From Candidatus Eiseniibacteriota bacterium (GTDB lineage: Bacteria > Eisenbacteria > RBG-16-71-46 > JABDJR01): 64,000 nt of DNA. Where the stretch lies: the NCBI GenBank assembly GCA_963783375.1, contig CAWANH010000028.1:1440001-1504000 (forward strand), in the 5' to 3' direction. Made by a program: the position numbers and the translations under genes. The first letter of the stretch is position 1, and the number at the start of each line of letters is the position of its first letter. The notes beneath the pieces are model-generated. The model was not told where the DNA came from and made no database searches. It saw only the letters and a list, made by a program, of their open reading frames with translations. Positions 25,448-43,002 of this stretch are shown here, one piece after another.

Positions 25448-25454
25448 GGCCGGG

Positions 25455-26561: not shown

Positions 26562-26865
26562 GGTTCGGCTCCCGGTGGTTCGGTGACGCCCGGCTTCGGG
26601 GGACATTGAACCCCATGGGGGGCGCGGGGTCCAGGGTCGGCAATGTCACCCCGCCGGTTCGGCGCCGTACTTCCTCACCGAGGGACCGGAAATCCGCGCG
26701 GCCCGGCGATCCGGAAACGCCGACCCTGCGTGAACCGGGGGCCGACTTGCGCGAAACGCCTCCCGGTCCCTATCATTGACCGATTCTATCCGGTTTGTCC
26801 GTCCGTCTCCGGGGCATGTCACCCTGCGGGACGGGTGGTGACCGTACCCCCAGGAGGTTCTGATC

Positions 26866-27303
26866 ATGAAACGTTTGCTGAGCGTGTTCGCGCTCTCTGC
26901 GGTGCTTGCCGTATCGCTCTCCTTCGCCGCCCTCGCCCAGGAAGGCAGCGGCATGGGCATGAAGAAGGGCGAGGAGGGCATGAAGAAGGACGCCCCCAAG
27001 ACCATGACCGTGACCGGCGAGATCGTGGACATGGGCTGCTACATGGGCCACGGCGCCAGGGGCGAGGGCCACAAGGAGTGCGCGCTCAAGTGCATCGCCA
27101 ACGGCATGCCCATGGGGCTCCTCACCTCGGACGGCACCCTCTACGTGCTCACCATGAGCCACTCGGACGCCGATCCCTTCAACAACGCCAAGAAGATGGC
27201 TGCGGACATGGTGGAGATCACCGGTCCGGTGTCCGCGCGGAACGGGGTCAAGTCCATCGAGGTGGACAAGATCGCCGAGGCCAAGACCGACAAGGGCGAA
27301 TAG
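26866..27303 (+). CDS. Secreted Cys/His/Met-containing hypothetical protein
   Basis: Signal peptide; GEIVDMGCY...HKECALKC; GGAGG RBS. Confidence 0.8.
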   Translation: MKRLLSVFALSAVLAVSLSFAALAQEGSGMGMKKGEEGMKKDAPKTMTVTGEIVDMGCYMGHGARGEGHKECALKCIANGMPMGLLTSDGTLYVLTMSHSDADPFNNAKKMAADMVEITGPVSARNGVKSIEVDKIAEAKTDKGE

Positions 27304-27359
27304 CCCGCCGCTCCGTCGACGGACGGCTTGCCGGAAACCGTGTCCGGCCGGCAAGCGGG

Positions 27360-27393
27360 AACCCGGGGGCTCTCTTGAGCCTCCGGGTTTCTT
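27360..27393 (+). terminator. Intrinsic terminator-like hairpin
   Basis: AACCCGGGGGCTC-TCTT-GAGCCTCCGGGTT followed by TCTT. Confidence 0.55.
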
Positions 27394-27455
27394 CATCACG
27401 TCGCTGGATGGCGTAACCTCGGCCTGACCCCGATCCCCCTCGCGAGGAGCCGTTC

Positions 27456-28277
27456 ATGAATCGAAGCCGCATCCTGATCCCGGCCGCCGTCGTCAGCATC
27501 CTGGCTATCGGCGTGGCGGCGGGGTGGAAGATCGTCACCCGGCCCCACCTCCCTCCGGCGGAGCAAGGGAGACGGCTGGCCGAGAACCTGGGCTGCTTCG
27601 GCTGCCACGGCCCGGAGGGGCTCCACGGCGCCGCCAACCCCGGCCGGACCGATGAAACCGTGCCCGGGTTCGGCGGGGTGGTCATGATGTACGCCCACGG
27701 CCCGGAGGAGATCCGGGAGTGGATCGCGAACGGGGTCAGAAACTCCGAGGCGGGAAGCGCGAACTGGAAAGCGCAGCGCGCCAAGGGAGCCCTGGTGATG
27801 CCGGCCTTCGGGGACCGGCTCTCCCCCCGGGAGATCGACCAGCTGGTGTCGTTCGTCATGGCCGCCACCGGCTGGCCCCAGCCCCAGGATCCGGATGCCG
27901 CGCACGGCCTGGAGCGGGCCCGGGATCTGGGATGCACCGGTTGCCACGGCTCGGGCGGGCGCTTCGCCCGACCCAACCCGGGATCGCTCAAGGGCTACGT
28001 CCCGTCCTGGGACGGCGCCGACTTCGCCGACGTGGTTCACGATCGCGCGGAGTTCGGGGAATGGGTGGAACGGGGGGTGAGCCGCCGCTTCGAGCGGAAT
28101 CCTCTGGCCCGGTGGTTCCTGGGTCGCGCGGTGCTCAGGATGCCCGCCTACGGCCGCCACCTGAAGCCGGGCGACGTGGACGCGCTCTGGGCCTACGTCC
28201 GGTGGCTCAACACCGACGCGGCGAAGCTCCCCGGCTACGGAGCGGCAGACCTGGATTCCGAGTACGATTTCGAATAG
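27456..28277 (+). CDS. Diheme c-type cytochrome
   Basis: CFGCH and CTGCH, each with a downstream MPAF/MPAY axial Met; N-terminal anchor. Confidence 0.88.
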   Translation: MNRSRILIPAAVVSILAIGVAAGWKIVTRPHLPPAEQGRRLAENLGCFGCHGPEGLHGAANPGRTDETVPGFGGVVMMYAHGPEEIREWIANGVRNSEAGSANWKAQRAKGALVMPAFGDRLSPREIDQLVSFVMAATGWPQPQDPDAAHGLERARDLGCTGCHGSGGRFARPNPGSLKGYVPSWDGADFADVVHDRAEFGEWVERGVSRRFERNPLARWFLGRAVLRMPAYGRHLKPGDVDALWAYVRWLNTDAAKLPGYGAADLDSEYDFE

Positions 28278-28329
28278 ACGGGCTCATCCCGAGCGCTCGG
28301 ATGTCGAATTCGAATAGCCGGCATCGTCC

Positions 28330-29409
28330 TCAGCGTTCGGATTTGGCCGCCTGGCGGGCCGCCGGCTTCCCCTTCACCTGCTCGTAGCCGAGCTGGCCGC
28401 AGGCGGCCAGGATGTCGAGCCCCTTCGAGTACCGCACGGTCACCGTGGTCCGGTAGGGCCAGAGCCGGCGGGCGAAGGCGTCGACCGCCTCCGCGTCGGG
28501 GCGCTCGTAGGGGAAGAACTCCGAGGGGTTGAACGGGATGACGTTGACCTTGGAGGGGAACCGTTCGGCGATCCGGCCCAGCCGGTCGGCGTCGGCGGGG
28601 GTGTCGTTGAGCCCCCGGATCAGCACGTACTCCAGGGTCACCCGGCGGCCCGAGAGCGCGGCGTAGGCCTCCAGCGCCCCCAGGACCGACTCGATGGAAT
28701 ACTTGCGAGTCACCGGCATGAGGATTTCTCGCACCTCGTCGGTGGTGGCGTTCAGGCTCAGGGCCAACCCCACCGAGAGGTTCTCCGCGGTCAGGCGGCG
28801 GATCCCCGGGGTGACGCCGACGGTGGAGACGGTGATCCGCCGGCCGGACACGTTCAGCCCCAGCTCATCCTGGAGGATCCCGATGGCCTTGAGGAGCGCG
28901 TCCAGGTTGTCCATGGGCTCGCCCATCCCCATGGCCACCAGATTGACCCCCAGGTTGGGTTCGCGGCGGAGGAGCTTCAGGTGCTGGATCTGGGCCACGA
29001 TCTCTCCGGCGGTGAGGTTCCGGATGCGGCCCATCTTCCCGGTGATGCAGAACGAGCAGCGGAACGCGCACCCCACCTGGGTGCTGAAGCAGATGGTCTC
29101 GCCGTAATCGGCCTGCATGAGGACGCTCTCGATCTCCCGGCCGTCGGATAGCGTCCAGAGGAACTTGACCGCGCCGTCCTCCGGGCTCTCCAGCTTCTCG
29201 CGGAGAGTGAGCGCCTGGAGATCGATCGCCCCGGCCAGCTCCGCCCGGAGCGCCTTGGGGAGATCGGTCATGGCGTTGAAATCGAGGATCCCCCGCTGAT
29301 AGACGTTGAGGAAGAGCTGGCGGGCGCGGTAGCGGGGGTGTTCCCGCTCCTCGAACCAGGCCTCGAGCTCGGGCCGGGTGAAATCGTAGAAGTTCGTTCG
29401 AGCGTCCAT
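28330..29409 (-). CDS. rlmN: 23S rRNA m2A2503 methyltransferase
   Basis: STQVGCAFRCSFC, MGMGEP, DILAACGQL. Confidence 0.95.
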   Translation of the reverse strand: MDARTNFYDFTRPELEAWFEEREHPRYRARQLFLNVYQRGILDFNAMTDLPKALRAELAGAIDLQALTLREKLESPEDGAVKFLWTLSDGREIESVLMQADYGETICFSTQVGCAFRCSFCITGKMGRIRNLTAGEIVAQIQHLKLLRREPNLGVNLVAMGMGEPMDNLDALLKAIGILQDELGLNVSGRRITVSTVGVTPGIRRLTAENLSVGLALSLNATTDEVREILMPVTRKYSIESVLGALEAYAALSGRRVTLEYVLIRGLNDTPADADRLGRIAERFPSKVNVIPFNPSEFFPYERPDAEAVDAFARRLWPYRTTVTVRYSKGLDILAACGQLGYEQVKGKPAARQAAKSER

Positions 29410-29605
29410 GGTCCTCATTCTACTTCGTGGGCGGGGTCGGCCGTCCGGTTCGACACCGTCCCCGGGCGACACGGGACGAGAGAGCTTACCATCCCGGTCC
29501 CCCCCACGACGCGGGAAGCGAAAAGGGGCTGTTCATCCGGGGCGCCCTGCTGTATGAATCTTCACATATATTCACATGCGTGTATTCAAAGGATCGGAGG
29601 GGACC

Positions 29606-29974: not shown

Positions 29975-30378
29975 CCCCGGAGGACTCGGATGAGTCCAGC
30001 GCGGACGACGATGAGGGGCCCCGACGGAGCGACATCGAGGAGTGGCTCCTCTGATCCGGAGGGACCGGCTCTCCGGGCTCCCGGATCGTCTCCCCCGGCG
30101 TCTGGTCCCAAGGGTCGCAAAAAAAATTTATGATCCCGGTTCCGTCTCTTTCTGACCGGGGAAGGTTCCGATATACTGACCACCGGAGGGAGGCGCGAGG
30201 AGGGTCAGGCTCTCCCCGCAAATCCCGACTGAAAAGCTCTAGTTAGGACGGTCCTCTTCCGGTGGAGGGACCTCCGTCCCTGGTTCGATTGCGAAACAAG
30301 CCAGCGTCCCGATCCGTCTTCGACTGGTGTCCCCCCCGGAGACGGTTTCTGGTCGACTGTCCTAGGGAGCTCGTCGTC

Positions 30379-30756
30379 ATGACCTCCAAGCGTTTGGGCA
30401 TCGTGGTCGTCGCCCTGGCCGCAGTGTGGAGCCTGGCGGGGCTCAACTGGTTCGCACCTGCTGCCAGTTATGCACCTCGCTCATTCCTCACGGTTGGCAC
30501 GGCCCAAGCAGGGCTCGCGGACTTCACGCATGGAACCCAGTACACAACGAACACGATGGAGGGGGACCCGGATCAGTACGCCAACGGCGCACAGGGGGAC
30601 CCCGATCAGTACGCCGGCACCGCCGGCCAGGATTCGACCCAGAGCCAGACGAGCGACAGCGGCTCGAGCGGCTCCTCGCATACCGGGTCGTGGATCCAGC
30701 AGATCACCAGCATGGCTTCGTGGATGTACGGTGCGTTGACTGGGTTTCGGTATTAG
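30379..30756 (+). CDS. Secreted propeptide with tandem GDPDQYA repeats
   Basis: AGGGAG RBS; signal peptide; EGDPDQYANGA-QGDPDQYAGTA; Ser-rich spacer; amphipathic aromatic tail. Confidence 0.8.
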   Translation: MTSKRLGIVVVALAAVWSLAGLNWFAPAASYAPRSFLTVGTAQAGLADFTHGTQYTTNTMEGDPDQYANGAQGDPDQYAGTAGQDSTQSQTSDSGSSGSSHTGSWIQQITSMASWMYGALTGFRY

Positions 30757-30816
30757 TTTCTCAAGTGAGGGGGGCCGGTATCGCGGGATACCGGCCACCG
30801 ATCGAGGACGTACGTC

Positions 30817-33800
30817 GTGAACCGTTCGAGTAAGGCAGAGCGGCGCCCCGAGGGTGTCCCGAAGGCGCTCGAGCCCGACACGTGGCAGGATATGCCTGAG
30901 GCCGTCAAGTACGGCGACGTCTGCTACCAGGCGGAGCGCTACGCCGACGCCCTCGATGCCTATGCCGGGGCCTTGAAGACCGAGGGTCGCCGCCTTCCCG
31001 CCGAATTGCGCGCCCGCCTCCACTATCGGATGGCCGAGTGCTATCTCCGCCGTTCCAACTACATCCAGGGCCTCGATCAGCTCGACCGCGCTCGCGCGGT
31101 CCTTCCCCGCCATCTCGACAAGGTCCGCCTGGCCAAGATCTACGCCCGCCGCGGTCAGATCATCATGGAGATGGGGCAATATTCCCGGGCCGAGCGATAC
31201 CTGAGCTGGGCCAAGAAGCTCCTCTCGGGGACCAACGAGCACGAGGAGCTGGGGGCGATCGAGATTCACCTCGGCACCGTTCACGCCCGCCTGGGAAACT
31301 CCGGCGAGGCGCGCCAGTGCTTCCTCAATGCCCTGGCCACCTACCGCCGCATCGGCGACGGCAGCGGCGAGGCGAAGTCCTTGAACAACCTGGGACTCCA
31401 GTACAAGAACGCCTGTGAGTGGCGGGAGGCGGTCCGGTACCTGGAAGAGGCGCGCACCCTCTTCGAGCGCATCGGTCACCGCCAGCACCTCGTGACCACC
31501 CATCTGAATCTGGGGATCGTCCACCTGAAGCTCGGAAAGTGGGAGCTTTGCGAGGAGAACCTGGCCGCCGCCGAGCACATCGCGCGCGAGCTGGGAAGCC
31601 TCCAGCCCCTGGTCCGCATTCAGCTCGCCCAGGGAAACCTCATGCTTCGCCGCCGGCGCTGGGACGAGGCGCGGGAACTCTACGACGAGGCCCGGCGGGT
31701 CTCCGAGGCCCAGGGCTACGGTCGCGAAGCCATCCTCGCCCAGGAATTCACCGGCGAGATGCTCCTGGAGATGGGGGAGATCGAACGATCCTCCGAGTTC
31801 CTCGAATCCTGCCTCGCCGAAGCCCGGGAACTCGCCCCCGACGGCGACCTGGTGAACGAGATCCTCCGCCGCCTGGCCGAGACCCGTCTCGCCCAGGGAC
31901 GGGCCGAGGAAGCCCTGACCTTCGCGAAGGAGTCCGCGGCCTCGGCGAGCCGGATCGGCGATCGCTACGAGGAAGCGGTCGCGCTTCGGGTTGTGGGGCT
32001 CGCCATGATGCACCTGGACCGGCGCACCGAAGGGGAGCGCCTGGTGGCCATGAGCCTCGACTCCCTCGGCGACATCGGCGAGTCCTTTCAGAAGGGCGTG
32101 ACCCACTACCGCTACGGGCGGCTTCTGGCCCGTTTCGCGATCGAAACCAAATCCAACCAGGAGCTTGAACGGGCCGCGATTCATCTCCAGCGGGCTTACG
32201 GGGCGTTCCTCGATCTCGACGCCCGGGTCCAGGCCGCCGGCGCCGCCCACGAACGCGCGGCGCTGGAGTGCAGCTTCCATCGGTTCGAGGAGGCGGCGAC
32301 CTACCGGGCCAAGGCCCGCGAGGTCCTGCCGGCCGGGGCCGATCCCGACCTTGAGAGCGCCCTGGAGCGCCTGGGCGGAGAGCTGGAGAACGCCTTCGCC
32401 GAGCGCTGGGCCGCCGGCGGGGACGTGCTGGCTTCGCTTCGCGAGATGAAGCGGCTCTTCCAGGGAGCCACCGATACCGAGGCGGTGCTCCGCGAGCTCA
32501 TCCGTCTCGCGGTCACCCGATCCGGCTCCACCCGGGGATGCGTGGCCCACGCCTCGGGGAACGGGGACGTCCGGGTGGTCGCGGCCTACGGGTGGACTCC
32601 GGACGAGGCGCACACCCTGCTTCGGGCCATGGGCCCCACCCTGGGGGCGACCCTCGATGAGAACCGCCCGGTCTGGTCCAACGATGCGGCCGAGGACGAT
32701 CGCTTCCGCACGATGAGCGAGGACGAGCGATTCCGGACCCGGAGCCTCGTGCTCCTGCCCCTGGTGCTCACCGAGGAGAAGCCGGGGCTTCTCTACGTGG
32801 ACAAGACCCCCGAGAACTACGAAGGGGCCTACCACCAGGGCGAGCTCCATCTCCTGACCATTCTGGCCAACCTCGCCGCGCTCTCGATCATGGAACGCTG
32901 GAACTCGAAGCTCATTCGCGAGAACGAGGAGCTTCGGGCCCGGATCGCCCTCGGCGAGGGGGACAATCGCTTCGTCACCGCCAACGCCAGCCTGAAGGAG
33001 ACCCTCCGGCTGGCCGGCAAGGTGGCCAACAGCCCGGTTTCGATCCTCATCGAGGGTGAGACCGGGACCGGCAAGGGGCTCCTCGTGCAGATCATTCACG
33101 AGGCCTCGAACCGGCGGAACAAGCCCTTCGTGCAGATCAACTGCGCCGCTCTGCCCGAGCAACTACTGGAGAGCGAGCTGTTCGGCCACGTGAAGGGGGC
33201 CTTCACCGGCGCCACCTACAACAAGGTGGGGCTCTTCAAGGAGGCCGAGAACGGGACCCTGTTCCTGGACGAGGTGGACAAGACCAGTCTGGCCGTCCAG
33301 GCCAAGCTCCTCCACGTCATGGACTCCAAGGAAGTGCGGCCGGTGGGGTCGGTCAAGCCCTACCGGGTGGATACGCGGATCATCTGCGCCACCAACGCCA
33401 ACCTCCGCGAGAAGATCCGGGCCGGCGAGTTCCTCGAGGATCTCTACTACCGCCTGAACGACTTCATACTGAACGTCCTCCCGCTCCGCGAGCGTCGCGA
33501 GGACATCCCGCTCCTGGTCGACTACTTCCTGAAGAAGTTCTCGAACCAGTACGAGCGACCCGAGGTGAAGCTCAGCCCGGAGGTCCGGCGCGTTCTCCTC
33601 GATCACCCCTGGCCGGGGAACGTTCGGGAGCTGGAGAAGGCCATCCGGCGTCTGGTGGTGCTGGCCGACGAGGAGCTCCCCGCCGGACTCGACCTGCTCC
33701 CGGTGGAGATCCAGACCGAACCGGCGAGCGATCTGCTGGGGAAGACCCTGCGCGAGGAAGTGGCGAGAACCGAACGGCGTGTGATCGCCGACGCGCTCCG

Positions 33801-33906
33801 CGCCGCCAACTGGAACAAGTCCCAGGTCGCGCGTCAGCTCAAGGTCTCGTACCCCTGTCTGCTGAAGAAGATCAAGGAACATCACCTGCTCAAGCCCGCC
33901 TCCTGA
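30817..33906 (+). CDS. TPR-GAF-AAA+ sigma54 enhancer-binding protein
   Basis: About 500 aa of TPRs (SLNNLGLQY, THLNLGIVH), GAF (GLLYVD), GETGTGKG, GAFTGA, LFLDEVD, C-terminal HTH. Confidence 0.93.
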   Translation: MNRSSKAERRPEGVPKALEPDTWQDMPEAVKYGDVCYQAERYADALDAYAGALKTEGRRLPAELRARLHYRMAECYLRRSNYIQGLDQLDRARAVLPRHLDKVRLAKIYARRGQIIMEMGQYSRAERYLSWAKKLLSGTNEHEELGAIEIHLGTVHARLGNSGEARQCFLNALATYRRIGDGSGEAKSLNNLGLQYKNACEWREAVRYLEEARTLFERIGHRQHLVTTHLNLGIVHLKLGKWELCEENLAAAEHIARELGSLQPLVRIQLAQGNLMLRRRRWDEARELYDEARRVSEAQGYGREAILAQEFTGEMLLEMGEIERSSEFLESCLAEARELAPDGDLVNEILRRLAETRLAQGRAEEALTFAKESAASASRIGDRYEEAVALRVVGLAMMHLDRRTEGERLVAMSLDSLGDIGESFQKGVTHYRYGRLLARFAIETKSNQELERAAIHLQRAYGAFLDLDARVQAAGAAHERAALECSFHRFEEAATYRAKAREVLPAGADPDLESALERLGGELENAFAERWAAGGDVLASLREMKRLFQGATDTEAVLRELIRLAVTRSGSTRGCVAHASGNGDVRVVAAYGWTPDEAHTLLRAMGPTLGATLDENRPVWSNDAAEDDRFRTMSEDERFRTRSLVLLPLVLTEEKPGLLYVDKTPENYEGAYHQGELHLLTILANLAALSIMERWNSKLIRENEELRARIALGEGDNRFVTANASLKETLRLAGKVANSPVSILIEGETGTGKGLLVQIIHEASNRRNKPFVQINCAALPEQLLESELFGHVKGAFTGATYNKVGLFKEAENGTLFLDEVDKTSLAVQAKLLHVMDSKEVRPVGSVKPYRVDTRIICATNANLREKIRAGEFLEDLYYRLNDFILNVLPLRERREDIPLLVDYFLKKFSNQYERPEVKLSPEVRRVLLDHPWPGNVRELEKAIRRLVVLADEELPAGLDLLPVEIQTEPASDLLGKTLREEVARTERRVIADALRAANWNKSQVARQLKVSYPCLLKKIKEHHLLKPAS

Positions 33907-34132
33907 CCCGGCCCCGCGCTCCAATTATCAATCCCGCTCATATAAACGGAATTAATAGGCTCAACCTCCTGCCGGTAGTGGGGTTAGCGGTGAGTAGCCC
34001 GTTCCCTGTTCACCATGTTGACAATCGCTGGAGCCGAGGTATCTTCCCCGACCCTCGAATCACCTCTCGATCTCCGTTCCACGCCGATGACCCGTAAGGC
34101 CTTAGGGAGTTTCTCCGGAGACCCGGGTGTTT

Positions 34133-34148
34133 TGGCACATCGCCTGCA
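34133..34148 (+). promoter_or_regulatory. sigma54 promoter (-24/-12)
   Basis: TGGCAC-ATCGC-CTGCA (GG-N10-GC), intergenic, upstream of the AAA ATPase. Confidence 0.65.
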
Positions 34149-34335
34149 TTGAGCAATGCGTGGAGGGGGGACCTCCAGAGCCGTCTGCCGTCGGGTTCCA
34201 AGGACAACGTGCCCTGCACCGAGTTTCCCACCGGACTTGGAACCCGATGGAGCGGCCTTGACCCGGCGGGTCGGGCCGCGGATCGGACGGCGATCCAAGG
34301 CCCGTATCCCGAACATCGAAATGGGGTGAGGCTCG

Positions 34336-35802
34336 GTGCGGCGCGAACGATCGGAAGCCTACCGCGATCAGTTCGAGTACCTTGCTGACTACTTCGATCT
34401 GATTCGCAGACGGGGCGACGCCTACAACATCCGGAACGAAGCCCTCGAGACCGAACGCATGGCTTGCTACAGCGAGCGTTCGGGCTACGAGTCCCAGCGC
34501 AGCCAGCTGGTGGAGATCTTCCGAGGCATCGAGGCCGAGGCGGACCGTCAGGAGATGCTTCTTCGCGGACGTAAGGAGGCTTCCGACCAACTGGGCGTCC
34601 GGTTCGCCCTCGACACTTTCATCGAACGACATCAGCTCCGTCCCGAGGAGATCCAGATCCTGATGGTCCTCCTCTACAACGAATCCGTCGGGCGCACCCA
34701 CGCCCGATTCACCAACGGGAACGAGATCCTGAACCTTCTCTTCCCGAATCCGGTCAGCGCGTTGAAGGCCTCCCGTTTCCTGGATGTGGGGGCGACACTC
34801 GTAAACGAAGGACTGATTCGGTCAACCTCTGATGACGACGGCTCGAACTTCTTAAGGGCTGCCTACGAAGTCACAGAGAAGACCCTGCACGAGGTGTTGG
34901 GAGCGGGTAACCGCAGCACTCTCCGGGATCCGCAGCAGACCTCCCACACGTTGAGCAGTTCTCTCGACGGTCCTTTCCGGGTTGTCGCCCCCCGTATTCG
35001 CCTGGACCAGGTCGTGCTCCCCCCCGACGTCCGCAAGCGGGTGGACGAGGTCCTGTGGCAGGAGGAGCACGGCCGCGCCCTGTTCGAGGAATGGGGTTTG
35101 AACGAGGTGGTGGAGAAGGGGCGGGGAACCATCGTGCTGTTCAGCGGGGTCCCCGGGACCGGCAAGACCATGACCGCCGAGGCCATGGCCGAACGGCTGG
35201 GACGTCCGCTCCACGTCGCCGACTACGCCCAGCTCGAAAGCAAGTGGATCGGCGAGACCGAGAAGAACATCGTGACCGTGTTCCGGTCCGCGGCCGAGGC
35301 CGGCGCGGTCCTCCTTCTCGACGAGGCGGACGCCATTCTGGCTTCGCGCCTGGACGGCGGCCACTACAACGACCGGGCCTACAACCGCCAGGTGAGCATT
35401 CTCCTCGGCGAGCTGGAGTCCTGGGAGGGGATGTGCATCCTCACCACCAACCGGTCGGTGACCCTCGACGACGGATTGGCCCGACGCATCGCGGCCTCGT
35501 TCGAGTTCACCATCCCGGAGGTCGGGGAGCGGACCCGCATCTGGAAGTCCCTGCTTCCCGAACGGCTGCCTCTGGCCGGTGATGTCGACATCGACGACTT
35601 GTCCCGCCGCTTCCCGATGGCCGGCGGGCACATCAAGAATGCCGTCCTCACCGCGGTCCGCAAGGCCGGGGTGCGGGCGGGCCGGCGCGCGCGCGTGACC
35701 CAGCGGGATCTGATCGAGGCCGCGGCGGCGGAGCACGAAAGCTTCCGCCCGTGTCCCCGCCCGATCGGGTTCGGAGAGGCTCCGTCCGCCTCCTACTCGT
35801 AG
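34336..35802 (+). CDS. AAA+ ATPase (single module, C-terminal IGF motif)
   Basis: GVPGTGKT, SKWIGETEKN, LLLDEAD, LTTN, RPIGF. Confidence 0.9.
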   Translation: MRRERSEAYRDQFEYLADYFDLIRRRGDAYNIRNEALETERMACYSERSGYESQRSQLVEIFRGIEAEADRQEMLLRGRKEASDQLGVRFALDTFIERHQLRPEEIQILMVLLYNESVGRTHARFTNGNEILNLLFPNPVSALKASRFLDVGATLVNEGLIRSTSDDDGSNFLRAAYEVTEKTLHEVLGAGNRSTLRDPQQTSHTLSSSLDGPFRVVAPRIRLDQVVLPPDVRKRVDEVLWQEEHGRALFEEWGLNEVVEKGRGTIVLFSGVPGTGKTMTAEAMAERLGRPLHVADYAQLESKWIGETEKNIVTVFRSAAEAGAVLLLDEADAILASRLDGGHYNDRAYNRQVSILLGELESWEGMCILTTNRSVTLDDGLARRIAASFEFTIPEVGERTRIWKSLLPERLPLAGDVDIDDLSRRFPMAGGHIKNAVLTAVRKAGVRAGRRARVTQRDLIEAAAAEHESFRPCPRPIGFGEAPSASYS

Positions 35803-36279
35803 ATCCCGAGGCGTCGGCGCGCGCGTCGCAGTTTGGTGCTGTACCGATGGTAAGCCGGGGTTTCCCGGCGATTCCAGGTCTCGTCGGATCGCGTGTCTGA
35901 GACCCGACGAGACCCCTTCCCGGGCGGACCCTCCGGGGGTCGCCGAACGGTGGAGGTGCGACGAGGGGGCGGGGCCATGATCGAGCGCAGGCTTCGTCCC
36001 CGCCATCCGGCTCCGCCGGTCTCCGGCGGAGTGGTTCGGCGGGCGAGATGGACGCCCGGCCGGACGGGGATAGGAACCGACCAAGGTTCCATTCGGATAC
36101 CGGCTCCTGCAGTTCTCAGACCATAGATGGGGGATGTCCAGGCTGGTGCTGCGGAGAAATCCGGTATCCGAACTCGGCGCGACGCCGGACTGAAATCCGG
36201 CGTCGCGTTCTTTTGGGGCGCGTCCTCCGGGCCAGGGGCCAGTCGACCCACCCCACACCGGCCGCGATCGGCTCCGAGG

Positions 36280-36308
36280 TTGACCGCCGGGACCGGCGCG
36301 CCGATAGT
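36280..36308 (+). promoter_or_regulatory. sigma70-type promoter for a leaderless transcript
   Basis: TTGACC-N17-GATAGT ending 6 nt before ATG 36315. Confidence 0.55.
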
Positions 36309-36314
36309 CATGGC

Positions 36315-37223
36315 ATGCAGGAATCCTCCACCCCCGACGCCGCGCCGGTCGCCCCGGTCCGCCCCCCCTTTCCCGGTATCGCCCAGGCCTGGGGCCTGCT
36401 CCTTCTGGCCTGGGCGGGGATTTTTCTCGCCGCCATCGTGGTGATGGCGGTCACGGTGGCCCTCCGGGGGGGCGAACTCGCCATGCCCTCGAGCGCCGCC
36501 CTCATCCTGGTGGCCAACTCCGCCGGATTCGCGGTCGCGCTGGTGATGGGGTGGAAGTTCACTCGCCTTCCCCTCCGGGAGATCTTTCCCTTCCGCTCCT
36601 TCAATCCGGTGATCCTCATCCCCCTGGCCCTGGCCGCGGTGGGGGGTGGGGGGCTGCTCTCGGAGATGGACACCCTCTTCCGGCTCCTGCCCCTTCCCGC
36701 CGGCCTCCGCGGCTTCATGGAGACCGTCGATCGCTCGGTGCTGGACATGATCCTCCAGTCGTTCTGGCCGTCGGTGGTGGCGGTGGTGGTGATGGCCCCG
36801 CTCACCGAGGAGCTTTTCTTCCGGGGTCTTCTCCTCCAGGGCTTTCTCCGCCGCTATTCCACCCGGAAGGCGCTCGTCGCCTCGGCGTGCTTCTTCGCCC
36901 TGGCCCATCTCACCCCCAATCAGCTCATCCCCGCGCTTCTGGCCGGGGTCTTCCTGGCCTGGGTGGTGATGAGGACCCGGAACCTCTGGCTCTCCATGTT
37001 CACCCACGCGGTCTTCAACAGCCTGAGCGCGATCCAGGTGGGGCTCATGGGGGACTCGGCCTCCGAAACCCTCACCGCCAAGCCGCACTTCCAGCCCTGG
37101 TGGTTGGATCTCCTCTTCCTGGTGATCCTCGTCCTCGGCATCCACTGGACCCGGGCCTGGATCCGCTCCCGCTACCCGGAGCCGGCCCCGTACCCCGAAA
37201 CCACCTCCTCCGCCGGCGCCTGA
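36315..37223 (+). CDS. CPBP/Abi (CAAX) intramembrane protease
   Basis: APLTEELFFRG, FALAH, HAVFN; multiple TMs. Confidence 0.92.
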   Translation: MQESSTPDAAPVAPVRPPFPGIAQAWGLLLLAWAGIFLAAIVVMAVTVALRGGELAMPSSAALILVANSAGFAVALVMGWKFTRLPLREIFPFRSFNPVILIPLALAAVGGGGLLSEMDTLFRLLPLPAGLRGFMETVDRSVLDMILQSFWPSVVAVVVMAPLTEELFFRGLLLQGFLRRYSTRKALVASACFFALAHLTPNQLIPALLAGVFLAWVVMRTRNLWLSMFTHAVFNSLSAIQVGLMGDSASETLTAKPHFQPWWLDLLFLVILVLGIHWTRAWIRSRYPEPAPYPETTSSAGA

Positions 37224-37364: not shown

Positions 37365-37379
37365 TGGCACCGGGCTTGC
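37365..37379 (+). promoter_or_regulatory. sigma54 promoter (-24/-12)
   Basis: TGGCAC-CGGGC-TTGC, exact consensus. Confidence 0.8.
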
Positions 37380-37467
37380 GTTACAGGTGGGCGACCCCGA
37401 CGGGGGCCGCGCACACGAGCCACAGATCGGTTCGTGGCGCCGAGGCCCCGGGGCAAGGAGGTGGGTG

Positions 37468-38316
37468 ATGACGAACGCGACACGGATCCCCTGGAAATTC
37501 GGCCGGCTTCTCCCGGTGGCGGTGGGGATGCTTCTGGGCGCCTCGCTTCTGAGCGGGTGCGATGAGGAGCTCTTCCGGCGCGACTGCGGCGATCCTCTGG
37601 CCCCGGTGGACGTGAACTCGATCACCGGGGACGGCGAGGTCTATCTCTACTGGACCCCGGTGGACGAGGACAACGTGGACTACTTCGTGGTCTACCGGTC
37701 CTCCACCGCCTACGGGACGTATTTCGAGGCCGGGCACACTTCCGGCGAGGATTTTCTCGACCGGGACGCCCGAAACGGACGCACCTATTTCTACGCGGTG
37801 TCCTCGGTGGACTACTGCGGGCACGAGTCGGAGCTCTCCCGGGAGATCGTCCACGACACTCCCCGGCCCGAGGGTTTCGGGGACTCGATGGCCGATGCGG
37901 ACGGCGCGAACTGGCGCCGGAGCGCGTGGGACTTCAGCGCCTACCGCGCCCTGCCCTGGGACCACGCCGAAGCCGACGTCTATTTCATCGTGGCCGACGG
38001 GGTGCCCTTCCTGGTGGCCGTCGACCTGGACACCGACATCCAGGACGCGGGCTACGCCGGATTCGACGAGGTGAGCTGGGCCCCCAAGAGCGGGTGGAAC
38101 CCCAGCGGCGCGGTGGAGGTGATCGCCGGCCACGTCTACGTGGTGTGGACCCGGAACGACCACTACGCCAAGGTGCGGGTCACCTCGATCGGCAACGGCA
38201 CGCTCCGCTTCGACTGGGCCTATCAGGTGGACCGCGGCAACCCCGAGCTGGCCCCCAGGCCGCCCCGGGAGTCCGCGCCCCAGAGCGTGATCCCCTCGGT
38301 CCGCCCGGCGGCGTGA
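37468..38316 (+). CDS. Lipoprotein with Fn3-like domain
   Basis: AAGGAGG RBS; lipobox LSGC; GDGEVYLYW...YFYAVSSVD..GHES. Confidence 0.85.
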   Translation: MTNATRIPWKFGRLLPVAVGMLLGASLLSGCDEELFRRDCGDPLAPVDVNSITGDGEVYLYWTPVDEDNVDYFVVYRSSTAYGTYFEAGHTSGEDFLDRDARNGRTYFYAVSSVDYCGHESELSREIVHDTPRPEGFGDSMADADGANWRRSAWDFSAYRALPWDHAEADVYFIVADGVPFLVAVDLDTDIQDAGYAGFDEVSWAPKSGWNPSGAVEVIAGHVYVVWTRNDHYAKVRVTSIGNGTLRFDWAYQVDRGNPELAPRPPRESAPQSVIPSVRPAA

Positions 38317-38396
38317 CCGCGGAGGCCACACGGGTGAAGGCGATGAAACGATCACACGGTTTTCTCCAGTGCAGATCTCCCCAGGAGGGAAGAGCC

Positions 38397-39179
38397 ATGA
38401 AAACGAAACGCACGATGATCTCGATCCTGGCCGGGCTCGGCCTCGTGGCGGGGGCGGCGGCCGCCTCCGGCTCGGCCTCCGCCGGAGCCTCCGGCTCGGT
38501 GAGCGCCGCCTATCGGTCCGGCGGCGTGGACGCCCAGGTGGTCCTCGCCGGCCGCGACGGTTCCCGCACCCTCGACCCCCGGCTGATCCCGGTGCCGGTG
38601 GACCGTTCCCGCGATCTCACGGTGGACGTGTGGACGGATGCCGGGAACGGCGCCGCCCTCCGCCCCGGTGAGGACGTGACGGTCGATTTCCGGGTGACCC
38701 GGAGCGCTTACGTGGTGGTCTACGACATCGACACCAACGGCCGGGCCAGGCTCCTCTTTCCCACCCGCCGCGGCGACGACGGCTGGGTGCGCGCGGGCGA
38801 GCTCATGCGGCTCCCCGAGCGGGGCGACGGGTACCGGCTGATGGTGACCGGGCCCGCGGGGACGGAGCGGATCGTCGCCCTGGCCTCGGACAAGCCCCTG
38901 GTCGGCCGGTGGGAACGGTTCGCGGACGAGGATCTGCGGAGCTCGATCCGGGACGACGATGAGGGTTACGCCCGCTACCGGACCTACGGGGAGGGAATGG
39001 ATCTCTCGGGCGATGCCGACGTCTCGGTCCGCCCGGTCGGGCGTTCCGGAGGGACCGTCGCCCCGCGGGTGATCCCGGTCCCCACCGCGCCCCGCCTGGT
39101 CCCGGTCCCGGTCCGCCGCACCGGGATCGCCCGGGACGAGACCTGGTTCCACGTGACTCCGGCCCGGCGGTGGCGGTAG
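38397..39179 (+). CDS. Secreted DUF4384-domain protein
   Basis: VDVWTD...GEDVTVDFR..RSAYVVVYDIDTNG..RLLFP...GPAGTERIVALAS. Confidence 0.8.
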   Translation: MKTKRTMISILAGLGLVAGAAAASGSASAGASGSVSAAYRSGGVDAQVVLAGRDGSRTLDPRLIPVPVDRSRDLTVDVWTDAGNGAALRPGEDVTVDFRVTRSAYVVVYDIDTNGRARLLFPTRRGDDGWVRAGELMRLPERGDGYRLMVTGPAGTERIVALASDKPLVGRWERFADEDLRSSIRDDDEGYARYRTYGEGMDLSGDADVSVRPVGRSGGTVAPRVIPVPTAPRLVPVPVRRTGIARDETWFHVTPARRWR

Positions 39180-39300
39180 AACCGGCAGTGAAATAAAGAC
39201 TTCGGGGGTTCCGGCTCCGGCTCGCGCCACTCGGGCGCACCGGGACCCCCGATTCGGACGCGCGCGTCGGGGATAGATTCGGCCCCATCTCCGGCGGGCG

Positions 39301-39332
39301 GGGGGCCCCCATTCGGGGGGCCCCTTCTCTTT
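39301..39332 (+). terminator. Intrinsic terminator
   Basis: GGGGCCCCC-ATTC-GGGGGGCCCC stem followed by TTCTCTTT. Confidence 0.65.
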
Positions 39333-39513
39333 GGGGGGGACGCCGGGGAGGCCCGGACCCGGCGGCACCGGCTTTTCGGGAACCGGAGGCCCCCGCGAGG
39401 GGTCCAACCTCCTGCCGACCCGCGCTTTGCCGCGTCGGAGATTTGGGTTAGGGTGTTGTGTCCTGAAACCGCCCTGACCCGGATGCCGACCCTCCCCGAC
39501 CCAAAGAGCCCGC

Positions 39514-42500
39514 ATGAAATTTCAGCCAGCGTTCCTGTGGATCTCTCTCGCCGTGCTCGGGCTGGGCGCCTGGATCGCGCCGCCGTGCGCGCGGGCCGAG
39601 GCTCCGCCCGCGGGGACCGTGCCCCGTCCCTGCTTCGTCCCCTCGCCCCCTCAGAAGCTGGGCCTCAACCGGCCGGTGGTGGAGGCCCCGTCGCCGTCCC
39701 GGATGGCGTCCGCCGCGGCCGGGATCGGCGGGCCGGCCTTCCACTACCACGACGACCACCTGACCGAGGCCGGCATCCAGCTCGGGACCGGGGATCCCTT
39801 TCCCCGGCAGGTCCACGCCATCGCCATCCTGGTAGACTTCGACGACGAGCCCATGGGGAGCGGGTTCAAGGATCAGGCCGCCGACTCCACCCAGCTCTAC
39901 TTCAAGCGCGTGCTCACCGACCTGGGTCAGATGTACGACGAGATGTCGGGGGGACAGCTCAGCGTCGACTGGGAGCTGACCGGGAAGGTCTACCGGCTCC
40001 CCCAGACCATGGCCTGGTACGGCCTCGACGACTCCATCGCCACCCGGGAGGCCGCCCTCTGTCAGGATGCGATCCGGGCCGCCGACCCCGACGTGGACTT
40101 CGGCCGGTACGACCGCTTCATCCTGTTCCATGCCGGGCCGGGCCAGGAGGCGGACATCAACGACGACTCGCGCGAGGAGATCTGGTCGGTCTTCTTCCGC
40201 CAGGTGGATTTCCAGTACTGGCTGGACACCCCCGACGCGGCGCGGGGCATCCGCACCATGGACACCGACGCCGGGGGGGACACGATCTACGTTCCCAACG
40301 TGGTGGTCCTGCCCGAGACGGAAACCCAGGACGGCTACGAGTTCGGCATCATGGGCACCACCGCCCACGAGTTCGGCCACAGCTTCGGGCTTCCCGACCT
40401 CTACGACACCACCGGACCCGCCGACTTCATCTTCGCCGACAGCCAGGGGATCGGCGCCTTCGGGCTCATGGGCTCGGGGATCTGGAACGACAACGGGTTC
40501 TTCCCGGCGGAGTTCTGCGCCTGGAGCAAGTTCTACATGGGGTGGCTCCGCCCCGCGGTGATCCGCCCCGACGGCGCGGGAGGAGAGCGATCGGTGGCGG
40601 TCCGGGCGGTGGAGATCGCGCGCCGGGACGGGGCGGTCCGGATCCCCATGGGTGGGGACGAGTACCTCCTCATCGAGAACCGGCTCCGCGACTACAACGG
40701 GAACGGGAAGTTCGACTTCAACGACGTGGACGGCGACTCCGTGTTCACCTTCTGGGGGGACGACTACCAGGGGGCCGAGCTCGATTACTACCTTCCCCGG
40801 AACATCGAGGGCCCATCCGGCCGGCTGTACGACGGTTCCGGGCTCCTCATCTGGCACATCGACGAGTCCATCGTCCGGGACCTCCTCTACTACAACCTGG
40901 TGAACGCGGACGCCCGGCACAAGGGAGTGGACCTGGAGGAGGCGGACGGGATCCAGGATCTCGACAAGCTGGAGTTCACTTTCGAAGCGTTCGGGGATGC
41001 CCGCGACTCCTATTGGGCTCCCAACGCCACCGAGTTCACGCCGGCCACCACGCCCAACACCGACGGCTATAACCACACCCGGACCGGGATCTGGATCACC
41101 GACATCTCGGCGCCGGCGGACACCATGACCCTGAAGGTGCGGTTCACCTCACCGGAGGGAGGCGCGACCGGCGACTTCAAGCCGGGTTGGCCCCGGGACC
41201 TGCCGGGGCGGGTGGGGAATTTCCAGCCCGTGACCGGGGACCTGAACGGGGACGGCCGGGTGGAGATCGTCGTCTCCGCCACCGACACCGCGGGGATCGG
41301 CGGACCGGTGATCCTGGGCGACGACGGGACCTCCTATTTTCAGCCGGGGGGGGCGCCGCGCCTGCTCTCCCACGGCCGCCTGCGCTCCGACCCGATCCTG
41401 GTCAACCTGGATCCGGACCGGGACCCCCATCCCGAGGTGGTGTGGGTGAGCGGGGACACCCTGTACGCCCTCGAGGGGGACGGGATGTTCCTGGGCTCCG
41501 ACGGAGCGACGGGACCCGACCCCGCCCCGTTCTACATCCTCCCCCCGGGAAGCGGCCGGGTGCATCTCACCGCGGGGAACCTCGACCGGCCCCTGGACGA
41601 CCGTCCCGAGATCCTGGTTTCGGCCCCGGCGGGAGCGGCGGCCGAGAGTACGGAAGTTCTGGCCGTGGCCTACGCCCCCGGGGCCGGGAGTTCACTGCGG
41701 ACCCGCGTCACCTACCCCGGCGACGCCTCACTCTCCAGCACCCTGGCCGACGAAGACGACGTGGATCGCGGGCTCATGGAGATCGCCACCTCGGTGAGGA
41801 CCGCCGGGGGCGGCTATCTGGCCGTGGCCCTTCTCTACGAGCACATCCAGCCGAACGGGCAGTACATCGCCGTTCCCTACAAGTATTCCTTCGGGGACAC
41901 CGTGGCTTTCAACGCGCCGGTGGTGGGGGACCTGAACCGCGACGGTCTGGACGATATCGTGGTGGTGGATTCCCGGGGCTGGCTCCACGCTCTCGACGTC
42001 AAGGTCTCCTCCAGCGACGGAATGACCAAGAACCTGAGGGATCCGGGCTACTTCCCGCCCGCGGGCTCCGACGACCACGCCGATTTCAACGAATTGGCCG
42101 GCTTCCCGGTGAAGTTCCGCACGGTCTACGAAGGCGAGGTGCTCCCTTCGGAGGACGCGGTGAGCCTGGCCGACCTGGACGGCGACGGCTATCTGGAGAT
42201 CCTGGCCTTCACCCCGCTCAACGTGCTCCACGTCTACAACTACAACGGGACCCCGGTTCTCTCCACCCCGACCCTCGTGCCGGGAGAGGACCGGTTCACC
42301 CGCCCGTTCCTTTCCCCCCTGGTGGCCGATCTGGGTAACGGCCTCGCGAACCAGCTTCTCCTCCCCCTGGCCGACGGCCAGGTCCGGGGTCACGACCCCC
42401 GGGGTCGCCCGCTTGCCGGGTGGGCATATCTCGGTGGCGGGGAAGAGGGGACGTATCCCGTCCTCACCGATCTCGACCAGGACGGCGTCCTGGACCTGGT

Positions 42501-43002
42501 GACCGTGGAGGACGTGACGGTGGCGGTTCCGTTCGAGAACGACCGGGGCGACGAATCGCCGGATGCGGTCAAGGTGGGCCGGGTGGTGGTCCGCGAGGTG
42601 GGGGCGGGAACCCCCGGAGGCGCCTGGCCGGTCTACCGCCACGACGCCCTCCGGTCGGGCCGGGCCGTGGCTCCCCAGACCGCGGGCGGGGAACCCCGCG
42701 GCAGCGGACTCTTCGATCAGGCCTTCGTGATGCCGAATCCGGCGGTGCGGAAGACCCCGGAGATCCACTACCGGGTGCGCTCCAACGTCCAGCGGGTGAC
42801 CATCGAGATCCACGACATGGCGGGGGAGAAGGTCCGAATACTGACCGGGACCGTCTATCCCAGCACGGACAACCTGGTGTCCTGGGACCTCACCAACGAG
42901 CGTGGGAACGGCGTGGCGCCGGGCCTCTACCTGGCGCGGGTCCAGGCCGAGGCGGGGAACCGGGTGGAGGTGAAGATGCTTCGGTTCGTGGTGGTGCGAT
43001 GA
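39514..43002 (+). CDS. M6 (immune inhibitor A-like) metalloprotease with FG-GAP repeats and T9SS/FlgD CTD
   Basis: HAGPGQE, AHEFGHSFGLPDLY, YLLIENR, GLLIWHID; DLNGDG repeats; PNP...WDLTN..G..VAPGLY. Confidence 0.92.
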   Translation: MKFQPAFLWISLAVLGLGAWIAPPCARAEAPPAGTVPRPCFVPSPPQKLGLNRPVVEAPSPSRMASAAAGIGGPAFHYHDDHLTEAGIQLGTGDPFPRQVHAIAILVDFDDEPMGSGFKDQAADSTQLYFKRVLTDLGQMYDEMSGGQLSVDWELTGKVYRLPQTMAWYGLDDSIATREAALCQDAIRAADPDVDFGRYDRFILFHAGPGQEADINDDSREEIWSVFFRQVDFQYWLDTPDAARGIRTMDTDAGGDTIYVPNVVVLPETETQDGYEFGIMGTTAHEFGHSFGLPDLYDTTGPADFIFADSQGIGAFGLMGSGIWNDNGFFPAEFCAWSKFYMGWLRPAVIRPDGAGGERSVAVRAVEIARRDGAVRIPMGGDEYLLIENRLRDYNGNGKFDFNDVDGDSVFTFWGDDYQGAELDYYLPRNIEGPSGRLYDGSGLLIWHIDESIVRDLLYYNLVNADARHKGVDLEEADGIQDLDKLEFTFEAFGDARDSYWAPNATEFTPATTPNTDGYNHTRTGIWITDISAPADTMTLKVRFTSPEGGATGDFKPGWPRDLPGRVGNFQPVTGDLNGDGRVEIVVSATDTAGIGGPVILGDDGTSYFQPGGAPRLLSHGRLRSDPILVNLDPDRDPHPEVVWVSGDTLYALEGDGMFLGSDGATGPDPAPFYILPPGSGRVHLTAGNLDRPLDDRPEILVSAPAGAAAESTEVLAVAYAPGAGSSLRTRVTYPGDASLSSTLADEDDVDRGLMEIATSVRTAGGGYLAVALLYEHIQPNGQYIAVPYKYSFGDTVAFNAPVVGDLNRDGLDDIVVVDSRGWLHALDVKVSSSDGMTKNLRDPGYFPPAGSDDHADFNELAGFPVKFRTVYEGEVLPSEDAVSLADLDGDGYLEILAFTPLNVLHVYNYNGTPVLSTPTLVPGEDRFTRPFLSPLVADLGNGLANQLLLPLADGQVRGHDPRGRPLAGWAYLGGGEEGTYPVLTDLDQDGVLDLVTVEDVTVAVPFENDRGDESPDAVKVGRVVVREVGAGTPGGAWPVYRHDALRSGRAVAPQTAGGEPRGSGLFDQAFVMPNPAVRKTPEIHYRVRSNVQRVTIEIHDMAGEKVRILTGTVYPSTDNLVSWDLTNERGNGVAPGLYLARVQAEAGNRVEVKMLRFVVVR

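What the first reader, a model, noticed from the sequence alone, without database searches (positions are those of the whole stretch)
30379..33906. Candidate peptide quorum-sensing system acting through sigma54: GDPDQYA propeptide + TPR-GAF enhancer-binding protein
Seen: a 125-aa exported protein carries GDPDQYA twice at 11-aa spacing (30562-30582, 30595-30615; one synonymous difference). It lies 60 nt upstream of a cytoplasmic activator with a long TPR array, GAF, intact GAFTGA AAA+ and HTH, and no receiver domain. Known: RRNPP systems pair a small secreted propeptide, sometimes with repeated mature peptides, with an adjacent TPR receptor in Firmicutes and their phages. Inference: an analogous circuit in a diderm, with sigma54 output, which I do not recognise as described.
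Basis: partly seen in the sequence, partly recalled or inferred. Interest (0 to 1): 0.85.

Follow-up and report, generated by a model that had tools for sequence, protein, structure and literature searches.

The report
Peptide-sensing sigma54 switch in diderm bacteria
In two uncultured outer-membrane phyla, a small, likely exported protein carrying a four-residue Gly-Asp-Pro-Asp-type motif sits directly in front of a repeat-domain sigma-54 activator whose predicted binding-groove residues change in step with that motif, which likely makes it a peptide signal and its receptor, a type of signalling so far described in Gram-positive Firmicutes.

Summary
Observation confirmed. The pair is a conserved system. 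The activator's TPR family is in 145 of 151 Eisenbacteria and 120 of 121 Krumholzibacteriota genomes searched. 257 of 261 distinct receptors have an upstream small ORF with a hydrophobic N-terminus, and 228 of these carry a called G/A-D/E-x-D-type motif; 0 of the genome's 23 other sigma54 activators have this. Only the four-residue core is conserved, not GDPDQYA, and the doubling is rare (13 of 228). The strongest evidence is residue-level covariation: when motif Asp4 changes, receptor R158 or K197 changes (19 of 26 automatic calls, 17 of 18 curated, against 2 of about 200; independent pairs p 0.008 and 0.03), and Pro3 tracks A/G271. Complex prediction gave only weak support (0.50 vs 0.00). 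The likely output is a sigma54 promoter with enhancer ahead of a structured RNA and a lipoprotein-DUF4384-M6 protease operon. It works like RRNPP but is not a member. Binding, processing, re-import and density sensing are untested. The scan noted this system before on other genomes.

The parts
30379..30756 (+). Small precursor gene, 125 aa: signal-peptide-like N-terminus, polar low-complexity middle with the motif, hydrophobic/aromatic C-terminal tail
   Evidence: family-wide; no Pfam/NCBIfam/Atlas match
30562..30582 (+). Motif copy 1, GDPDQYA (conserved core GDPD)
   Evidence: core frequencies
30595..30615 (+). Motif copy 2, GDPDQYA
   Evidence: doubling in 13 of 228 loci
30773..30796 (+). 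Perfect 10-bp intergenic hairpin between precursor and activator; not a family-wide feature
   Evidence: median z -0.07 over 228 loci
30817..33906 (+). TPR-GAF-AAA+(sigma54)-HTH activator, 1029 aa
30898..32256 (+). TPR superhelix (about 11 helix pairs, pLDDT 94), predicted peptide-binding groove with conserved N190, N191, N231, R303
31288..31290 (+). R158, covaries with motif position 4
31405..31407 (+). K197, covaries with motif position 4
31627..31629 (+). A271, covaries with motif position 3
33941..33957 (.). Palindromic enhancer (UAS) candidate, about 190 nt upstream of the promoter
   Evidence: pattern in 65 of 99 loci, shuffle mean 0.5; only 1 of 41 promoter-like sites in this genome has it
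34133..34148 (+). sigma54 -24/-12 promoter candidate
   Evidence: 102 of 121 loci, shuffle mean 6.9
34160..34260 (+). Structured RNA or 5' leader starting with a conserved G-rich hairpin (3' end approximate)
   Evidence: no Rfam family at gathering score
34336..35802 (+). Winged-helix AAA+ ATPase gene, first ORF after the promoter in this order-level lineage only
   Evidence: 8 of 80 loci
37365..37380 (+). Second sigma54 promoter candidate ahead of the lipoprotein operon
   Evidence: 51 of 53 loci
37468..43002 (+). Conserved downstream operon: lipoprotein (37468-38316), DUF4384 protein (about 38397-39179), M6 metalloprotease with FG-GAP/FlgD-Ig (39514-43002)
   Evidence: lipoprotein in 49 of 57 loci with 2.5 kb or more downstream

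Best explanation
The small protein is likely a signal precursor whose G-D-P-D core would bind the TPR groove of the neighbouring activator and would thereby control sigma54 transcription from the promoter that lies just downstream. Shown by sequence comparison: the two genes are linked, the core is conserved, motif positions 3 and 4 change together with groove residues A271 and R158/K197, and a conserved enhancer plus sigma54 promoter, structured RNA and secreted-protein operon follow the activator. Inferred: the precursor is exported by Sec and cut by periplasmic or external proteases (the M6 protease of the target operon is a candidate). A short acidic peptide then returns through an Opp/Dpp-type importer, lies extended in the groove with Asp4 held by R158 and K197, and releases the AAA+ domain to oligomerise at the enhancer. 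Activation is more likely than inhibition (about 60:40). Whether the peptide stays in the periplasm (self-sensing of envelope state) or leaves the cell (true quorum sensing) is open, about even.
For: Linkage: 257 of 261 distinct receptors have the upstream ORF; 2 of 25 sigma54 activators in this genome have an upstream motif ORF, exactly the two TPR ones. Covariation: both R158 and K197 are basic in 200 of 202 D4 loci, and one is changed in 19 of 26 non-D4 automatic calls (17 of 18 after curation); independent pairs 7.9 same way / 0 opposite / 7.1 no difference, p 0.008 (curated 6.5 / 0 / 1.5, p 0.03); the pair ranks first of 630 conserved-column pairs. GDPN with K197T occurs in three families on well-supported separate branches. 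Pro3 goes with A/G271 in 144 of 152 loci and non-Pro with another residue in 66 of 68; 271 ranks first of 71 columns. Divergent motif classes (DGTP[YF]EEPE, DG[GD]GDEW) come with remodelled pockets. The nearest folds are peptide-binding LGN/TONSOKU TPRs. Complex prediction, weak support: 0.50 against best control 0.00 (runs 0.54, 0.02, 0.50; contacts agree at least 47%; partner pLDDT at least 35); the mark was reached by 116 of 157 solved and 2 of 215 mismatched pairs, but at 0.60 or under by only 18 of 157 and by both mismatches. Basic n-region in 216 and AxA-like site in 188 of 228. Seven SBP_bac_5 matches in the genome. All 13 paralog-B loci carry a sigma54 site 66-161 nt before the precursor gene, as an autoinduction loop would. 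Tandem pheromone copies are known in Phr propeptides (PMC11343458, abstract and passages).
Against: No binding, processing or import was measured. The pocket pair was partly chosen after seeing the data: K197 was proposed, R158 added. K197 alone gave 3 of 5 independent pairs (p 0.25). In loci fetched after, 5 of 8 non-acidic position-4 cases changed K197. Counter-examples: L293 (GDPN, R158 and K197 kept), L199 (GDPD with G197), L040 (GDPD with Q158). Motif positions 1 and 2 found no clear partner column. No cleavage site is conserved around the motif. The core is almost invariant across two phyla, which fits poorly with kin-specific signalling. No importer gene appeared among the conserved neighbour clusters listed. 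The conserved hydrophobic tail is unexplained.
Confidence: 0.55

Rival explanations
1. Export monitor: the motif binds the TPR groove in the cytoplasm, as unexported precursor, so the activator reads Sec capacity or envelope stress; no processing or re-import is needed.
For: Explains the same covariation, the near-invariant core, the lack of a conserved cleavage site, co-transcription, and an output of exported proteins.
Against: Tandem copies and motifs placed right after the predicted signal-peptidase site (L035, L045, L052, L028) look like pheromone precursors. No Sec or chaperone genes among the conserved neighbours.
Confidence: 0.2
2. Membrane-tethered partner: the small protein stays anchored through its N-terminal segment or hydrophobic tail with the motif facing the cytoplasm and sequesters the activator, as PspA does PspF (recalled analogy).
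For: Tail hydrophobic fraction 0.56 against 0.27 in the middle; covariation is equally explained.
Against: A basic n-region (216 of 228) and an AxA-like site (188 of 228) predict N-in, C-out and cleavage; the tail reaches transmembrane hydrophobicity in only 10% of loci.
Confidence: 0.1
3. No direct contact: the small protein is a co-transcribed exported protein, and motif and receptor vary together only through shared descent.
For: Kin share labels; few independent events; the complex score is weak.
Against: Charge-matched changes recur on separate branches, none go the opposite way, and the best columns of about 70 are groove positions.
Confidence: 0.1
4. Translation-arrest leader of the SecM/MifM/VemP kind (recalled) that controls translation of the activator gene.
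For: Signal peptide, upstream position, an intergenic hairpin in this window.
Against: The motif lies 22-82 residues from the C-terminus, the hairpin is not conserved, and covariation points to the receptor.
Confidence: 0.03

Closest known systems
RRNPP(A) peptide quorum-sensing pairs of Firmicutes (Rap-Phr, NprR-NprX, PlcR-PapR, AimR-AimP, Rgg-SHP, ComR, PrgX)
   Same: Small Sec-type propeptide next to a cytoplasmic TPR receptor; peptide predicted in the concave groove; internal and duplicated pheromone copies (PMC10075063 passages; PMC9765709 passages; PMC11343458 abstract and passages).
   Different: Diderm hosts; 800-1030-aa receptor with the TPR at the N-terminus and GAF, sigma54 AAA+ and C-terminal HTH as output; precursor upstream, mostly 85-173 aa, with a hydrophobic tail; TPR closer to LGN/KLC than to RapF (E 2.6e-7 against 7e-24); core nearly invariant across phyla.
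Sigma54 enhancer-binding proteins with GAF input (NifA, NorR, FhlA; NCBIfam hits all below cut-off)
   Same: GAF-AAA+-HTH core, GAFTGA loop, upstream enhancer and -24/-12 promoter.
   Different: An added TPR array of about 450 aa and a dedicated peptide partner; no curated family covers it.
LGN/GPSM2 and TONSOKU TPR-peptide complexes
   Same: Nearest folds and sequences; long repeats with an NLG/Asn ladder that hold extended peptides (binding mode recalled).
   Different: Eukaryotic scaffolds; about 21% identity or less; likeness of fold only.
bEBP-driven small RNAs (CbrB-crcZ, LuxO-qrr; recalled, and named in earlier scan notes)
   Same: Activator gene followed by a sigma54 promoter and a structured RNA.
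   Different: No receiver domain; the RNA has no Rfam family; no CsrA found in this 97%-complete genome; the RNA may be a 5' leader.

Membership tests
RRNPP(A) | Small propeptide (10-100 aa in RRNPP_detector, PMC10075063) | tested here: not met
   125 aa here; family median 106, range 85-173 in the first 150
RRNPP(A) | Propeptide exported by Sec (SignalP) | tested here: inconclusive
   Basic n-region, hydrophobic core and AxA-like site by hydropathy and pattern only; SignalP not available
RRNPP(A) | Receptor of about 250-500 aa | tested here: not met
   1029 aa; shorter paralogs about 750-850 aa
RRNPP(A) | Receptor harbours TPRs | tested here: met
RRNPP(A) | Receptor and propeptide genes adjacent | tested here: met
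   257 of 261
RRNPP(A) | N-terminal HTH or three-helix effector before the TPRs (PMC9765709 passages) | tested here: not met
   TPR is N-terminal; the effector is C-terminal AAA+ and HTH
RRNPP(A) | Closest kinship to known RRNPP receptors | tested here: not met
   No RRNPP among the Foldseek rows shown, to rank 50; RapF last of the 60 rows shown in the profile search
RRNPP(A) | Mature peptide is processed, re-imported and binds the receptor | not testable with these tools
   Indirect only: covariation and a weak complex score
Sigma54 bacterial enhancer-binding proteins | AAA+ domain with GAFTGA, Walker A/B, R-finger | tested here: met
Sigma54 bacterial enhancer-binding proteins | C-terminal Fis-type HTH, cognate enhancer and -24/-12 promoter, rpoN in the genome | tested here: met
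   (sites predicted from conservation, binding untested)
CsrA-sponge RNA output | CsrA in the host | tested here: not met
   0 matches in the 97%-complete genome; Hfq/Crc not tested

The most novel reading that the evidence does not exclude
An independently evolved peptide-pheromone signalling family of diderm bacteria: a core-genome system of two phyla, present in several insulated paralogous channels per genome, in which an exported and re-imported peptide gates a sigma54 enhancer-binding ATPase through an LGN-like TPR groove, drives a new RNA and a secreted protease operon, and reports cell density.
Probability: 0.3. Interest if true: 0.9.

Novelty: new variant of a known kind. Interest (0 to 1): 0.78.

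Why it matters
Cytoplasmic peptide-receptor signalling is described for Firmicutes and their mobile elements (PMC9765709, section 5), and six literature searches found no peptide-gated sigma54 activator. If binding holds, this is a convergent version in outer-membrane bacteria and a new input type for enhancer-binding proteins. It is near-universal in two uncultured phyla. The covariation names the experiment: defined peptides, defined pocket residues (R158, K197, A271), natural orthogonal alleles, and a predicted enhancer and promoter, all testable in E. coli or in vitro without culturing the host.

Tried and rejected
Expression: one metatranscriptome held 5% of the words; its contigs come from a relative, are short and cannot show level, strand or ends; uninformative. 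Precursor family: no Pfam, NCBIfam or ESM Atlas match. Amphipathic tail: hydrophobic moment above shuffles in only 134 of 228, so the tail is hydrophobic-rich but not shown to be amphipathic. Lipoprotein precursor: lipobox-like in 4 of 228; rejected. Dedicated CPBP/CAAX protease: the neighbour ending at 37223 was found in only 3 of 80 loci; not a core part. Intergenic hairpin as a conserved control element: rejected. Rfam P11 hit at 24.8 bits against a 70-bit cut-off: taken as chance. Partner columns for motif positions 1 and 2: none clear. The search of 1.84 billion representatives was swamped by generic TPR proteins and has no taxonomy, and the name look-up for those hits could not be made, so spread beyond the two phyla is unchecked. 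Records titled Latescibacterota fall in the same genome-set phylum as the Krumholzibacteria record (one genome tested), so I count two phyla. An IQ-TREE run did not finish; all trees are FastTree.
Full report
OBSERVATION. 30379-30756 encodes 125 aa with GDPDQYA at 30562-30582 and 30595-30615, differing by one synonymous base. Sixty bases later a 1029-aa protein begins, with TPR, GAF, sigma54 AAA+ and Fis-type HTH matches and no receiver hit. Its catalytic motifs are intact and it has no membrane segment. The host has rpoN, 7 Omp85 matches and 7 family-5 peptide-binding-protein matches. Its closest named relatives are Candidatus Eisenbacteria.

THE PAIR IS A FAMILY. The genome holds one full-length paralog (C29:1321963, minus strand), also preceded by a signal-peptide ORF, with ADPD-TFQ. 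A profile of the TPR region matched 145 of 151 genomes of the own phylum at E 1e-80 or better and 120 of 121 genomes of the Krumholzibacteria phylum at 1e-45 or better. I first applied a motif-blind rule (most hydrophobic N-terminus among 60-200-aa ORFs ending shortly before the TPR) to 170 loci. Three lacked upstream DNA and 17 were duplicates. All 150 remaining had such an ORF; 145 held [GAS][DE]xD (shuffle mean 24, max 39) and 119 held [GA][DE][PA]D (mean 3.6, max 10). Controls in the own genome: of 25 sigma54 activators only the two TPR ones have an upstream motif ORF (2 of the other 23 have a small hydrophobic ORF without it), and 12 of 417 small hydrophobic-N ORFs carry the strict motif. 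In the final set of 315 loci, 261 were distinct receptors with upstream DNA, 257 had the ORF, and 228 got a motif call from a matrix that ignored position 4; 29 stayed uncalled, among them two divergent motif classes. These loci were the best or chosen matches of each search, not all matches. Core frequencies are G 94%, D/E 100% (positions 1 and 2 were required by the calling rule), P 69% and D 89%; flanks vary by clade. There are at least three paralog groups: type A (this one), type B (ADPD) and shorter forms of about 800 aa.

EVIDENCE FOR DIRECT CONTACT. The TPR region folds as a superhelix of about 11 helix pairs (pLDDT 94), nearest to LGN and TONSOKU peptide complexes, with no RRNPP structure among the rows shown. 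In the profile search RapF scores far below LGN and kinesin light chain. The most conserved polar residues (R158, N190, N191, K197, N231, R303, E348) lie on the A helices, which line the groove in TPR proteins (geometry from general knowledge). At I saw that K197, 95% conserved, is T or I where motif position 4 is N or I. On trees of the full protein and of the non-TPR part, GDPN with T197 appears in three families, in two of them among close GDPD/K197 sisters, and GDPI/GEPT goes with I/L197. K197 alone gave 3 of 5 independent pairs the same way, none opposite, p 0.25. Later loci gave 5 of 8 non-acidic cases with K197 changed. Two of the other three cases, and the E4 cases, changed R158 instead, one repeat earlier at the same helix end; I added R158 after seeing this. 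With both residues, 200 of 202 D4 loci keep two basic residues and 19 of 26 non-D4 calls lose one. Six of the seven exceptions have a standard D4 motif elsewhere in the peptide; with those six re-classed and two doubtful calls dropped the count is 17 of 18 against 2 of 208. Independent pairs: 7.9 same, 0 opposite, 7.1 no difference (p 0.008) for automatic calls; 6.5, 0, 1.5 (p 0.03) curated; 158+197 is the best of 630 column pairs. True counter-examples are L293, L199 and L040. A scan of about 70 conserved columns then found a second link: Pro3 with A/G271 in 144 of 152 loci, non-Pro with another residue in 66 of 68, 5.2 of 7 pairs the same way (220 rows after leaving out the eight doubtful calls). 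Positions 1 and 2 found no clear partner. The complex prediction gave weak support: 0.50 against a best control of 0.00 (runs 0.54, 0.02, 0.50; contact agreement at least 47%; partner pLDDT at least 35). That mark was reached by 116 of 157 solved and 2 of 215 mismatched pairs, but at 0.60 or under by only 18 of 157 and by both mismatches; no interface was returned. I put direct binding at about 0.85, mostly on the covariation.

OUTPUT. A -24/-12 site lies downstream of the activator, same strand, in 102 of 121 loci with enough DNA (shuffle mean 6.9; antisense 4 of 121), mostly 190-370 nt after the stop; here it is at 34133. A palindrome about 130-210 nt upstream of it is in 65 of 99 loci (shuffle mean 0.5; the pattern was derived from these loci). 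In this genome only the 34133 site, of 41 promoter-like sites, has it. The transcript would start with a conserved G-rich hairpin (66 of 87) and a structured RNA: z -2.9; 8 of 27 pairs with two-sided changes in 9 close sequences, though the covariation term is about zero; 6 of 32 in 28 GEPD-clade sequences; no Rfam family. A lipoprotein gene follows in 49 of 57 loci with 2.5 kb or more downstream, with a second sigma54 site in 51 of 53, then DUF4384 and an M6 protease. In this lineage an AAA+ ATPase gene (8 of 80 loci) and a CPBP protease gene (3 of 80) are inserted in between. All 13 type-B loci instead have the sigma54 site before the precursor gene, which would give positive feedback or a cascade. 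That the activator drives these promoters is inferred from conserved adjacency.

MECHANISM. How does an exported motif reach a cytoplasmic groove? I favour export, proteolysis and re-import (0.55): signal features are near-universal, some motifs sit right after the predicted cleavage site, tandem copies occur as in Phr precursors, and importers are present. The main rival is binding of unexported precursor as an export monitor (0.2); a tethered partner (0.1), no contact (0.1) and an arrest peptide (0.03) follow. Even under the best model, Sec delivers only to the periplasm, so the loop may be self-sensing. The near-invariant core argues against kin-specific dialects, and I put true density sensing at about 0.3. 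The hydrophobic tail (fraction 0.56 against 0.27; transmembrane-level in 10%; not shown amphipathic) is unexplained.

COMPARISON AND NOVELTY. It works like RRNPP but fails membership on propeptide and receptor size, domain order and kinship. Definitions are from PMC10075063 (passages), PMC9765709 (passages and section 5, which finds RRNPPA genes in Firmicutes) and PMC11343458 (abstract and passages on duplicated pheromones and Opp re-import). PMC12316311, a sigma54 regulon survey, has no mention of Eisenbacteria in its main text (passages). Six searches (listings only) showed no description of this system. The library lacks most subscription papers, and I read no supplements; the RRNPP_detector tables could list some of these loci. 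LGN binding mode, PspA-PspF, SecM/MifM/VemP and CbrB-crcZ are recalled. Verdict: real, conserved, apparently undescribed, a new variant of peptide-TPR signalling with a directly testable contact map; interest 0.78.

Noticed in passing
window 34160-34260 and e.g. L100, L118, L127, L103, L146 after the promoter: Conserved structured RNA without an Rfam family; the 5' G-rich hairpin is shared, the body differs by clade, and Krumholzibacteria have a different 5' end.
   Followed up: partly
window about 30262-30280: A similar GGAGG...CCTCC hairpin lies about 100 nt upstream of the precursor gene.
   Followed up: no
G000 C29:1322408-1318969 (L062): Paralog pair B with ADPD-TFQ and sigma54 sites 68 and 299 nt before the precursor gene; the divergent upstream region was not analysed.
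   Followed up: partly
L216, L218-L220, L224, L227, L234; L088, L214, L223, L226: Short-type receptors with different motif classes (DGTP[YF]EEPE; DG[GD]GDE[WF]) and loss of the N190/N191/K197 pattern: natural orthogonal channels.
   Followed up: partly
L146, L139, L247-L267 (GDAD-D[YL]A precursors): Many lack the hydrophobic C-terminal tail but have an aromatic segment between signal peptide and motif, as if that element had moved.
   Followed up: no
window 34336-35802: Winged-helix AAA+ ATPase (PF22977 + PF00004) inserted behind the promoter and RNA in 8 of 80 loci, all close relatives; function unknown.
   Followed up: partly
window about 36261-37223: CPBP/CAAX intramembrane protease gene inside the target region; only 3 of 80 related loci show it.
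   Followed up: partly
window 22482-29472: Conserved upstream context on the opposite strand: RlmN-like radical SAM gene (68 of 80 loci) and a HAMP histidine kinase (51 of 80) with an NtrC-like regulator; the type-A locus has a fixed chromosomal address.
   Followed up: partly
L007/L095: Family member whose precursor has drifted to GDND right after the predicted cleavage site while the receptor keeps R158 and K197.
   Followed up: no
window 15096 (+) and 22335 (-): Two further strong sigma54-like sites in the window.
   Followed up: no
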